Part shown: in pieces, positions 27,001-30,000 of the stretch
How positions within the stretch are numbered: position 1 is the first letter of the stretch
Layout of the letters: each line of letters starts with the position of its first letter
Made by a program: the position numbers
NCBI RefSeq assembly: GCF_964204865.1
Contig: NC_135260.1
Span: forward strand, 14,570,001-14,634,000
Length of the DNA stretch: 64,000 bases
Source of the DNA: Styela clava
Taxonomy: Eukaryota
Direction: 5' to 3'

Positions 27001-30000
27001 CTTCATTTCCAGGTCGATACATATTCAAATATTCTACTTTAATGTAAAATCAATTGGAAATTATAAAATAAATTGAAATGTGCTAAATAAAACGGTTGTT
27101 TCTAAGTCAACCAAGTACATGCGTGAAGACACGAAAATTGGCATTTTCCTATTTCTAGTATTATAAGATAAAATTCATCCGAAGAATATTACGCGTTACG
27201 GCCTAAACGTGACGGCCTGATTTTTTTGTCGTCCTCTGGAACCCCCGGGGCGAATTTATTCTTCAATATGAAGAGGGAATAATATAATGAGATATACTGA
27301 TATTTCGTCACGCCGCGCGCTTAGTGTGTGTGCATGTGTTTATTTATTTATTCATGTCTATCCGTGTGATAAATTATCTAAAAAAATGATGATTATACCG
27401 ATCAAGTAAGGTACAGTAGTAAACACCACACAATTTTTTTTTTTTTATAAATCCTAATGTCAGATTTAGTGATGCTGGTATTAAGATATGGGAGCCGCCA
27501 GACGCAAATGCGTTGGCAAAAATCGACAAGTCAACGAAGGAACAGATGCGTCTGGTCAGTAATTTCACTGAAATAATCCCCCCTATCAGAGGTTAACAAT
27601 CAAAATATCGATTCGGAGGCAAATTGCACACATTCAGAATCCAATTTGTACATAACAATTGACAAATATGCAAAATACGTACTGGTGATCGACCGAGCAC
27701 AAGCTGGCTCATAACAGTAACAGTGCTTTATACATCCGTTTAAGCAGGGCCTGTCGCCTTGAAACAAGTCACCGTTTGTAGTCCTGCCGTCCGCATGGAA
27801 ATCTTTATGAAGTTGCACGGTGAACGACCGGGTGGCGGCGTTCCATGACGCCGACACACCTTCTGCGGCAAAATATGTATCTTTCTCGAGGGATGAAGCC
27901 AGGCTGGCAACATGGGAACATATCCTATGAGCATGATACTCTGCCGTTTGATTTATGTCCGGGTGGGAATGGGGGCGGATAACAGCAGCATAGTTGTTAT
28001 TGTTGACGTCGTCAGTAGCAGCCACCGGCAAAGAAGACCTCCTGGTCGACGGTGGCTTGTTAATAGATCTAGCCTGTGACACTCTCCTTTTCATATTATT
28101 CGGTAGCATAAATTGTTCGCTATATCTTCGGTTTGCCGTACAAACAGACATGGCAACTTTTGCCTTTTTAGAAGACTTTGAATGAGACGATTTGAACCGT
28201 TTCGGTTTCAGTACCGCCACGGCGGCCTGGGCCTCCTTCTGGGATCTCGCCCTTGATATTAAATTCCACTCCTCGGTAGTAAGATAACGATCGTCGGAAT
28301 CCGGGCGCTTAAGATTTGCGAAATATTTGATAACCATGTCGCAAAATTGCATGACGTGGTTCGTAATAACTAATTTTAAAGGGTCTATTCTATGGAACAA
28401 AATAAAGACATTTATCGTTTGAACAAACCCATTCACACTATACTAGCTAACATAATTCAAGTGCAAATATCACAATATTAATTTTCTAAAACCTACTCAA
28501 AATCTACAACTACAAAATATATAATTCTTTCTGGCGCGTAACATCCTACCTCCCAAGCCTCACTGGTAGACTGAGCATCCGCGGCCTGTCAGTGAGTAAT
28601 AATATACCCGGAAAGGTCTGTTTCCATTGACGTCATTGCGTCGCTCGCTGGGAGCAAGAAAGAAACAGAGCAGACGAGCGAGAACAAAAACGAGAGAAAA
28701 AGACAAAAAGAGCAGAGCGGGCGCCCAATCGAAAATTGCATTGCTGCGACGCTTCAACCCGACTTTTCGAATCGCATTATGTTACATTTCATTTGTATAG
28801 GGAAGACAAAATTCGAATAGTTTAATTATAAAGAATTCACAATGTTCAAAATATTTCAGATATATATCGCACTGATCTTGCGATCATTATACATTTTTGA
28901 TATGTCAATTTTAGTTTGAGACTCGTCTATATTCTCCAAAATGATTGGTATAAGTTTAAATGGCATATTCATACTCTTGGACATTCGTTCTTTAATCATC
29001 GAATTTATTGATCACGGCTGAATCTAATTGGTTTTGACGTCAGGCACGCCGTGTCCAGTAACAGAATCCGTTTGACGTCACTACGAAAACGTGTCTCTAC
29101 CGCTTATTCATAGGTGTAGCTGGACTTCGTTCATTCTTTTATAATTTTCATCGAATTCCTACTAAAACCATCAAGGTACTGTTGAGATGCGATACACTAA
29201 AAATGGGCATGGTATATAGATATCTCACTTTTTTTATCTCAGGACTGCAGCGCGAAAACGCCTTAAACACGCCCACTGGGTCAGCGGGGTACGCTGATCC
29301 AAAGGCATGGGACGCATACCACATGGCAAAAATCCAGATACGCTATCGCTAAATACTGGTACGCGAATATCACGCCATGTGATAGAAGAAATATGGGGTC
29401 ATTGAAGGCTAGGTAGGTCTGGGGACGTCACATACTCGGAAGTTTACGCACACGATGGAAAACCGACGCAAAACGTCACGTAAAGTCAATAAGATGACAC
29501 ATACTAGTACTAGTATATTATATTAAATTATAACCATGAAAGTGGGGCATACACGAGTGAGTCGCTCCAAACGGGGGCGTATTATTGACGTCATCAATGA
29601 TGTAAGGCTAATTTGATCAACAAAGCGTAATTGTCTTTACTAGTATTTATGCGTAAAATATTTTAATTAATGTAATCCAACAATTCGTTACGTATGTGAT
29701 AGTAGTGCATGAGATAAATGCGATAAATACACGACCAAATACACTCAGGTACGTATGATTTTTGTTACGCGATAGAAGGAATTTATTAAAATGGAAAAAA
29801 AAAATACTAAATCAATTGATGATATCATGAGAAATACTTAAAATTGCAAGTATGGCCATAAGGAATATACAGAAAATAATTCCGGATTCTCTATCGGAAA
29901 TGAGTAAAAAATGGGAATCTCAAACTTCCATACAAAACTTGTGAATGTTTTTCCCCGTATGTGCTATATATACTGCACCCATTGTTACTTGACCGTTTAT

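What the first reader, a model, noticed from the sequence alone, without database searches (positions are those of the whole stretch)
27600..28384. The intronic ORF is splice-phase compatible with PDE4, allowing UCR-only, UCR-less or LR2-expanded isoforms
Seen: the UCR2 exon ends in phase 1 (TYL-G). Splicing to the second AG (exon start 28384) gives TYL-D-PLKLV..., in frame with the ORF and regenerating the same Asp as the normal exon. The first AG (28389) gives TYL-E-stop. Two phase-1 GT sites in the ORF (G|GTGACT after 27773, A|GTACGT after 27683) would join the 26921 exon in frame. Inference gives three testable products: (a) UCR1+UCR2 plus a ~260-aa tail with no catalytic domain, a possible trans-regulator, since UCR1/UCR2 are known to mediate dimerisation and capping of the active site; (b) a catalytic isoform with no UCRs and a novel PKA-regulated N-terminus; (c) a long form with a >200-aa cassette in LR2.
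Basis: partly seen in the sequence, partly recalled or inferred. Interest (0 to 1): 0.7.

Follow-up and report, generated by a model that had tools for sequence, protein, structure and literature searches.

The report
Alternative first exon of tunicate PDE4
The open reading frame inside this sea-squirt PDE4 gene is a real, conserved alternative first exon that gives an enzyme form without the usual regulatory regions, a form that already exists as a predicted protein in public databases.

Summary
The window is the Styela clava (tunicate, not human) PDE4 gene on the minus strand. The ORF is real coding sequence. It is the longest ORF in the window (0 of 100 simulated windows reach it). Its GC is 48% against 31-32% in its flanks. 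It is conserved at 60% and 36% identity in two unnamed relatives. Product (b) is right and already public: the 717-aa 'PDE4D-like' protein P0002 starts at ATG 28352, leaves the exon after 27683 and joins exon 26921. It has a complete catalytic domain and no UCRs. Products (a) and (c) have no support. None of the 4 protein clusters that carry the 26921 exon holds both UCR2 and the ORF. The in-frame AG (28384) scores below all 14 annotated acceptors, and the better AG (28389) gives an immediate stop. The frame match is about what chance gives. New here: four perfect cAMP-response elements and a TATA-like box lie just upstream. This suggests a cAMP-inducible internal promoter. No transcript data could be consulted.

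The parts
55568..55661 (-). Last UCR2 exon of PDE4 ([31 protein letters not shown] + G). Its donor TAG|GTGAGT is in phase 1.
   Evidence: Sequence read. The junction 55568->26921 reproduces long isoform P0007. All three long-form clusters read TYL-D-HQDD.
28628..29593 (.). Cluster of four perfect palindromic cAMP-response elements (TGACGTCA at 28628, 29035, 29073, 29586), 276 to 1241 nt upstream of the ATG. Putative internal promoter or enhancer.
   Evidence: The window has 14 sites against 0.93 expected. It is the most over-represented of 45,302 8-mers. The flanks are all different, so this is not a repeat family. Four sites within 966 bp occur in 1.1% of 200,000 random placements. Function is inferred.
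28601..28606 (-). TATA-like box (TATATT), 22 nt downstream of the nearest CRE. It would put a transcription start near 28575.
   Evidence: The sequence is present; its use is inferred.
28385..28410 (-). Pyrimidine-rich tract followed by two AGs 5 nt apart (exon starts 28389 and 28384). This is an acceptor-like site 32-37 nt upstream of the ATG and downstream of all five upstream ATGs of the leader.
   Evidence: PWM score is 2.8 for 28389 (low end of the annotated range, 2.3 to 16.7) and -1.1 for 28384 (below all 14). Use as a 5'-leader acceptor (spliced-leader trans-splicing or a 5'UTR intron) is inferred.
27683..28352 (-). Alternative first coding exon: ATG 28352 to the donor CCA|GTACGT after 27683. 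It encodes 223 codons plus the first base of a split codon.
   Evidence: P0002 residues 1-224 map here at 99% identity. GC is 48.3%. Conserved in P0003 (60%) and P0004 (36%). No Pfam family.
27600..27682 (-). Intronic read-through end of the ORF (STYFAYLSIVMYKLDSECVQFASESIF, then stop). Not part of the exon.
   Evidence: GC is 32.1% over 27600-27683. The alignments to P0003 and P0004 end at query residues 227 and 230. Only the 'ST' encoded by the donor itself is shared.
26778..26921 (-). LR2 exon, shared by the long forms and by P0002. Acceptor in phase 1.
21957..26027 (-). Eight further exons that encode the catalytic domain and C-terminus, shared by all isoforms.
   Evidence: The last 493 residues of P0002 are identical to those of P0005-P0007. 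The PDEase_I match covers profile positions 1-238 of 238.

Best explanation
The ORF is the alternative first coding exon (ATG 28352 to the donor after 27683) of the single PDE4 gene in this window, which is from the tunicate Styela clava. It lies in the 28.6-kb intron between the last UCR2 exon and the LR2 exon. I infer that transcripts start at a promoter of their own just upstream, one that carries four perfect cAMP-response elements and a TATA-like box. The exon is spliced to exon 26921 and gives a 717-aa enzyme. That enzyme has a 224-residue lineage-specific N-terminus with three RRxS sites, is predicted to be mostly disordered, and ends in a Cys-rich stretch. It is followed by LR2 and a complete catalytic domain, and it has neither UCR1 nor UCR2. 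Such an enzyme should escape UCR-mediated dimerisation, capping and UCR1-PKA control. It would work as a cAMP-induced feedback brake, as mammalian short PDE4 forms from intronic promoters do. The acceptor-like site 32-37 nt before the ATG is most simply the 5'-leader processing site of this transcript (spliced-leader trans-splicing or a 5'UTR intron). That processing would remove five upstream ATGs. Shown: the exon, its conservation, its splice to 26921 in a public model, the intact catalytic domain and the presence of the CREs. Inferred: promoter use, cAMP induction, leader processing, PKA control and enzyme behaviour.
For: The ORF is the longest in the window at 280 codons, and 0 of 100 first-order Markov simulations reach it (largest 224). 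A search of 1.84 billion representatives gave 3 hits at E<=0.001: P0002 (717 aa, 99%, query 11-234 to protein 1-224), P0003 (60%) and P0004 (36%). P0002 is named a Styela clava PDE4D-like protein in UniRef/nr. It maps onto the window as exon 28352-27683 followed by the shared exons, with the junction reading ...ARSIT-N-HQDD. Its last 493 residues equal those of the long isoforms. Pfam finds a full PDEase_I domain (1-238 of 238) and no UCR family in P0002. The long forms carry PF18100. GC steps from 31.1% to 48.3% to 32.1% at the ATG and at the donor. The residues 'ST', read through the donor A|GTAC, are shared by all three species at the end of the conserved block, which fits a conserved phase-1 donor. 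For the CREs. Five upstream ATGs (28578-28411) all lie upstream of the AG pair. Mammalian PDE4D1/D2 are induced by cAMP-raising agents through an intronic promoter (passage read in PMC10707411).
Against: I saw no transcript evidence. The donor at 27683 scores only 4.5, where the leave-one-out range of the annotated donors is 1.2 to 12.6, and 5.9% of 1623 intronic GTs score as high. TGACGTCA is enriched over the whole window (14 sites), so its presence upstream of the exon is not specific to this promoter. I could not test whether the enrichment is genome-wide. P0003 and P0004 are stand-alone ORFs of 229-230 aa with no catalytic part, so their link to PDE4 in those species is not shown. The AlphaFold model of the N-terminus is unusable (mean pLDDT 39.3).
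Confidence: 0.8

Rival explanations
1. Reader's product (c) or (a). In long-form pre-mRNA the UCR2 donor (55568) is cis-spliced to the in-frame AG at 28384 (or 28369). This would give either a long form with a cassette of about 234 aa in LR2 (if donor 27683 is then used) or a UCR1+UCR2 protein with a tail and no catalytic domain (if the transcript ends in the intron).
For: The frame arithmetic is right. AATAAA signals exist downstream at 27352, 27344 and 27260. If the AG pair is a trans-splice acceptor for the internal transcript, it becomes a paired acceptor in the long pre-mRNA. Paired acceptors are preferentially cis-spliced (passage read in PMC1488885).
Against: None of the 4 clusters that carry the LR2 exon holds both UCR2 and the ORF. 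The three long-form clusters (14, 2 and 5 member sequences) all read TYL-D-HQDD. The ORF searches found only P0002 among proteins of 456-2000 aa and only P0003 among those of 143-455 aa. The acceptor at 28384 scores -1.1, below all 14 annotated acceptors, and sits 5 nt behind a better AG. The 90 nt before the ATG and the 84 nt after the donor are 31-32% GC and are not conserved. The internal exon would be about 700 nt long.
Confidence: 0.1
2. Poison-exon or truncation reading. When long pre-mRNA uses the site at all, it uses the first and stronger AG (28389). The result is ...TYL-E-stop: an mRNA destined for decay, or a UCR1+UCR2-only stub without any tail.
For: 28389 follows the pyrimidine tract directly. 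It scores 2.8, inside the annotated range, and only 5.4% of 1141 intronic AGs score as high. The stop follows at once.
Against: No such protein turned up, though a stub would not carry the ORF or the LR2 exon and so my searches could not find it. The score is at the low end of the range. There are no transcript data.
Confidence: 0.15
3. The ORF is an independent nested gene that encodes a stand-alone protein of about 250 aa, and the public model P0002 is a mis-join.
For: The two relatives are stand-alone ORFs of 230 and 229 aa with no PDE domain. P0002 carries a different name ('4D-like') from the long forms ('4C-like isoform X...').
Against: Conservation and coding-like GC stop at the donor, not at the stop codon. 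The shared 'ST' after the conserved block fits a conserved donor that is read through in genomic ORF calls. The ORF is on the same strand as PDE4 and in the phase needed for exon 26921.
Confidence: 0.05

Closest known systems
Mammalian PDE4 short and super-short isoforms made from intronic promoters (for example PDE4D1/D2)
   Same: A unique 5' exon inside an intron of the PDE4 gene is joined to the common downstream exons. UCR1 is lost. In mammals PDE4D1/D2 are induced by cAMP-raising agents through an intronic promoter (PMC10707411, passages).
   Different: Vertebrate short-form 5' exons lie between the LR1 and UCR2a exons, and super-short ones between UCR2a and UCR2b (PMC2929239, passages). 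Here the exon lies after the last UCR2 exon, so all of UCR2 is lost as well. The N-terminus is 224 residues long and has no relatives outside three sequences. That paper found only long forms in Ciona.
PDE4 'dead-short' form
   Same: It has neither UCR1 nor UCR2 (PMC12699188 and PMC10707411, passages).
   Different: Dead-short forms have a truncated, inactive catalytic unit and are known only as mRNA. P0002 matches the whole PDEase_I profile, positions 1-238 of 238.
Spliced-leader trans-splice acceptors of ascidian genes (Ciona)
   Same: An acceptor-like site with no donor of its own lies upstream in the internal transcript, close to the start codon. Processing there would strip a leader rich in upstream ATGs. 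Unpaired acceptors are the ones that get trans-spliced (PMC1488885, passage).
   Different: Use of the site is not shown. A search for Styela together with 'spliced leader' and 'trans-splicing' found 0 papers. A 5'UTR intron from the donor-like CCA|GTGAGG at 28564 would explain the site equally well.

Membership tests
PDE4 (cAMP-specific class I phosphodiesterase) | Complete PDEase_I catalytic domain | tested here: met
   P0002: PF00233, E 1.2e-90, profile positions 1-238 of 238. The exons map to 26027..21957.
PDE4 (cAMP-specific class I phosphodiesterase) | UCR1 and UCR2 encoded by the same gene | tested here: met
   Long forms P0005-P0007 carry PF18100. Their UCR exons map to 62782..55568.
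PDE4 short form | Lacks UCR1 but keeps the whole of UCR2 | tested here: not met
   P0002 goes from the unique exon straight into LR2 (SIT-N-HQDD). It has no UCR family in Pfam.
PDE4 super-short form | Keeps a truncated UCR2. The 5' exon lies between UCR2a and UCR2b. | tested here: not met
   The exon lies downstream of the last UCR2 exon, at 28352 against 55568. The vertebrate positions come from PMC2929239.
PDE4 dead-short form | No UCRs and a truncated, inactive catalytic unit | tested here: not met
   No UCRs: met. Truncated catalytic unit: not met, because the Pfam match is full length. Activity itself is not testable here.
Alternative first exon with its own promoter | Transcription start immediately upstream of the exon, independent of the upstream promoters | not testable with these tools
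   There are only sequence hints: four CREs, a TATA-like box at 28606, and a public model that starts at this exon.
CREB-responsive promoter | Full palindromic CRE close to a TATA box. Induction by cAMP. | tested here: inconclusive
   The CRE at 28628-28635 lies 22 nt upstream of TATATT, and three more follow within 966 bp. Induction is not testable. The motif is enriched across the whole window.
Spliced-leader trans-spliced gene | Unpaired acceptor to which the leader is joined | not testable with these tools
   An acceptor-like site is present. I had no transcript data.

The most novel reading that the evidence does not exclude
The exon works in two modes. From its own CRE-rich promoter it is a first exon that gives a cAMP-induced, UCR-less PDE4, with PKA sites that replace the lost UCR1 site. 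In long pre-mRNA the same leader acceptor is paired with the UCR2 donor. The gene could then switch between a normal long form, a stop-terminated UCR1+UCR2 stub (through 28389) and an LR2-expanded long form (through 28384 or 28369). That would couple promoter choice, trans- versus cis-splicing and PDE4 regulation in a chordate that uses spliced leaders.
Probability: 0.1. Interest if true: 0.6.

Novelty: new variant of a known kind. Interest (0 to 1): 0.33.

Why it matters
PDE4 isoform classes are defined by how much of UCR1 and UCR2 they keep. Non-long forms were reported as mainly a tetrapod and mammalian invention, with only long forms seen in Ciona (PMC2929239). A tunicate gene that makes a catalytically complete form with no UCR at all, from a 5' exon at a junction vertebrates do not use, would be an independent route to a 'short' PDE4. 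It would also be a natural test of what the catalytic unit does without UCR capping. The CRE cluster would make the cAMP feedback loop testable in a simple chordate. However, the isoform already exists as a database model, and the more unusual products (a) and (c) have no support. The gain over public annotation is therefore modest.

Tried and rejected
Pfam gave no family for the exon: only DUF1068 at 18.1 bits, below its 25-bit cutoff. It gave nothing for P0003 or P0004.

A PDB profile search with the 3-sequence alignment found 0 matches at E<=1.

The ESM Atlas gave no usable hit.

The AlphaFold2 model of the exon product with a 3-row alignment had mean pLDDT 39.3, pTM 0.25 and 0 residues at or above 70. 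It was too poor for a fold search, so I ran none.

Accessions, the model's evidence and the members of the clusters stayed unseen.

BLASTP of the exon product against the long forms gave one marginal match, to the unique N-terminus of X1 (29% over 66 aa, E 0.005, includes WN[AS]ATRS). It gave nothing for X3 or X4 (best E 1.3 and 1.6). I do not build on it.

MAFFT placed the first residues of P0003 against different parts of the window's pre-ATG stretch than HMMER did. I therefore rejected the idea that the codons before the ATG are conserved.

Paper searches found 0 papers for Styela with 'spliced leader' and 'trans-splicing'. They found 0 for 'lacking both UCR1 and' with PDE4. A looser search for Styela or Halocynthia with 'spliced leader' listed nothing relevant among its 12 rows. 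The S. clava genome paper has no occurrence of 'phosphodiesterase' or 'trans-splic'.

I did not use complex prediction, because I make no binding claim.

Full report
What the window is. The window carries one PDE4 gene on the minus strand. Single-exon protein searches return Styela clava proteins at 99-100% identity. They are named 'cAMP-specific 3',5'-cyclic phosphodiesterase 4D-like' (P0002, 717 aa) and '4C-like isoform X1/X3/X4' (P0007, P0006, P0005). It is therefore a tunicate contig, not a human one. It holds no N. Checking each junction locally against long form P0007 gave 14 introns. UCR1 and UCR2 are encoded from 62782 to 55568, LR2 from 26921 to 26778, and the catalytic domain and C-terminus from 26027 to 21957. 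The intron between the last UCR2 exon and the LR2 exon is 28.6 kb long. The ORF sits at its 3' end, 761 nt before exon 26921.

The observation.
- The UCR2 exon ends ...TYL plus one G before GTGAGT.
- Exon 26921 supplies AT, giving Asp.
- A start at 28384 supplies AC, also giving Asp, and continues PLKLVITNHVMQFC... in the ORF frame.
- A start at 28389 gives Glu and then TAG.
- The GTs after 27773 and 27683 are in phase 1.

Phase compatibility at the 5' side is therefore what chance gives. At the 3' side it is required of any exon that feeds exon 26921.

The ORF is real coding sequence, but shorter than the stop-to-stop frame.
- At 280 codons it is the longest ORF in the window. None of 100 simulated windows reached it: the mean of their maxima was 148 and the largest was 224.
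- A search of 1.84 billion representative proteins gave three hits at E<=0.001. These are P0002 (99%), P0003 (230 aa, 60%) and P0004 (229 aa, 36%). P0003 comes from an unnamed contig of 2057 nt, and no source was shown for P0004.
- GC is 48.3% between the ATG (28352) and the donor (27684). It is 31.1% in the 90 nt before the ATG and 32.1% in the 84 nt after the donor. The constitutive PDE4 exons have 43.8%.
- Conservation starts at MQFCDMV / MV and ends shortly after HCYCYEP.
- The only shared residues further on are 'ST'. In the window these are the read-through of the donor A|GTACG, which fits a phase-1 donor conserved at this place in all three species (inference).
- The 27773 site lies inside conserved, GC-rich sequence (50% GC from 27773 to 27684). 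The public model reads through it.

Product (b) is right and already public. P0002 begins at the ORF's Met. Residues 1-224 map to 28352-27681, and the rest maps to the shared exons. The junction reads ...CARSIT-N-HQDD, which is exactly 27683->26921. The window differs from P0002 within the exon only at one residue (H/P at 186) and at the junction codon. The last 493 residues of P0002 are identical to those of the three long forms. Pfam finds the whole PDEase_I profile (1-238 of 238) and no UCR family in P0002. The long forms carry PF18100. I did not build or search joined models of (a), (b) or (c). I judged (b) through the existing database protein, which I found with single exons.

Products (a) and (c). 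The LR2 exon, searched among longer proteins, found 4 clusters out of 4 candidates: P0002 and three long-form clusters of 14, 2 and 5 member sequences. All three long-form representatives read TYL-D-HQDD and none contains the ORF. The ORF found only P0002 among proteins of 456-2000 aa and only P0003 among those of 143-455 aa. These are annotated or predicted proteins clustered at 90% identity, so a minor isoform could be missing. A stub ending TYL-E-stop could not be found by either query.

I built a position weight matrix from the 14 annotated introns. It is crude because it rests on only 14 sites.

| Site | PWM score | Range of the 14 annotated sites (leave-one-out) | Intronic sites scoring as high |
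|---|---|---|---|
| Acceptor 28389 | 2.8 | 2.3 to 16.7 | 5.4% of 1141 AGs |
| Acceptor 28384 | -1.1 | 2.3 to 16.7 | 16.9% of 1141 AGs |
| Donor 27683 | 4.5 | 1.2 to 12.6 | 5.9% of 1623 GTs |
| Donor 27773 | 3.5 | 1.2 to 12.6 | 9.1% of 1623 GTs |

The acceptor that keeps the frame is thus the disfavoured one. It lies 5 nt behind a better AG that leads straight into a stop. The '~260-aa tail' of (a) would consist of 10 codons of leader, the 223-codon exon and 27 codons of intron.

What the acceptor-like site is probably for. Five upstream ATGs (28578, 28544, 28453, 28432, 28411) lie between the likely start region and the main ATG. All of them are upstream of the AG pair. Processing at 28389 or 28384 would leave a clean leader of 32-37 nt. 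Two routes are possible: a 5'UTR intron from the donor-like CCA|GTGAGG at 28564, or spliced-leader trans-splicing. Ascidians use trans-splicing at acceptors that have no upstream donor, whereas acceptors paired with a donor are cis-spliced (PMC1488885, passage read). That Styela itself trans-splices is my recollection of tunicates in general. My search found no paper on it.

Promoter. TGACGTCA, the palindromic cAMP-response element (the name is from my own knowledge), occurs 14 times in the window against 0.93 expected. The largest count in 100 shuffles was 4. It is the most over-represented of 45,302 8-mers under a third-order model. Its flanks are all different, so it is not a repeat. Four copies lie within 966 bp just upstream of the exon (28628, 29035, 29073, 29586). 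Random placement of 14 sites gives such a cluster in 1.1% of 200,000 trials. The 1-kb bin 29001-30000 has the most half-sites in the window, 8 against a mean of 2.0. The nearest CRE is 22 nt upstream of a TATATT box at 28606. Mammalian PDE4D1/D2 are induced by cAMP-raising agents through an intronic promoter (PMC10707411, passage read). I infer the same logic here. I could not test whether the motif is enriched genome-wide in this species.

The N-terminus. No Pfam family, PDB relative or Atlas look-alike was found. The AlphaFold model is of low confidence throughout (mean pLDDT 39.3), so I ran no fold search. There are three RRx[ST] motifs (RRYS, RRVS, RRSS), and 23 of 20,000 shuffles reach three. 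All three are kept in P0003 and one (RRAS) in P0004. The exon ends in a Cys-rich block (NGCIKHCYCYEPAC) that is conserved in all three species. Unique PDE4 N-termini are held to act as targeting 'postcodes' (PMC12699188, passage read). PKA control and targeting remain inferences here.

Comparison with what is known. Reviews define the isoform classes as follows (PMC12699188 and PMC10707411, passages).
- Long: UCR1 and UCR2.
- Short: UCR2 only.
- Super-short: truncated UCR2.
- Dead-short: no UCRs, truncated inactive catalytic unit, mRNA only.

Vertebrate 5' exons lie upstream of UCR1 (long), between LR1 and UCR2a (short) or between UCR2a and UCR2b (super-short), and only long forms were detected in Ciona (PMC2929239, passages; I could not open its Additional Files). 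P0002 fits none of these classes. It has no UCR at all, a complete catalytic domain, and a 5' exon after the last UCR2 exon. I therefore file it as a new variant of the known kind 'PDE4 isoform from an alternative 5' exon'. It already exists as an automated database model, and I found no paper that describes it.

Left open. I could reach no transcript data, no genomic DNA of relatives, no accession or evidence record for P0002 and no supplements. The promoter, the leader processing and any use of the exon inside long transcripts are therefore untested.

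Noticed in passing
window 13797, 23100, 25826, 31149, 33126, 34466, 39147, 39921, 51465, 63806 (besides the four at 28628-29593): Ten further perfect TGACGTCA palindromes are spread over the PDE4 locus, each in unique flanking sequence. The word is the most over-represented 8-mer of the window: 14 observed, about 1 expected. The whole locus may be a dense CREB target, or the motif may be common genome-wide in this species.
   Followed up: partly
window 5050, 10989, 11044, 13539, 13557, 16347, 17323, 24785: A second palindrome, TACCGGTA, occurs 8 times against 0.85 expected. 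All copies are in the 3' part of the window, and two pairs lie 55 and 18 nt apart. It could be a factor site or part of a mobile element.
   Followed up: no
window 17322-18991 (-) and 8132-8386 (-): Transposon remnants lie downstream of the PDE4 gene. One is a reverse-transcriptase-like ORF (RVT_1, E 4.3e-4, below the curated cutoff). The other is a hAT C-terminal dimerisation domain (PF05699, E 2.3e-6).
   Followed up: partly
window 27816-28007 (-), exon residues 116-179, against P0007 residues 164-223: There is a marginal similarity between this exon and the unique N-terminus of long isoform X1: 29% over 66 aa, E 0.005, including WN[AS]ATRS. That is the most conserved block of the exon. It may be a shared short motif or chance.
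   Followed up: partly
window 28352-21957 (-) against P0002 and P0005-P0007: The window differs from the public proteins at a few residues: H/P at exon residue 186, and TPQPQ in the window against TTQPQ in P0002 in the C-terminal exon. The four public proteins agree with each other over the last 493 residues. The window is therefore probably another haplotype or individual than the annotated reference.
   Followed up: partly
P0002 against P0005-P0007 (database names): The ORF-first model is named '4D-like' with no isoform label, while the long forms are '4C-like isoform X1/X3/X4'. Yet they share ten exons. The public annotation may treat one locus as two genes.
   Followed up: no
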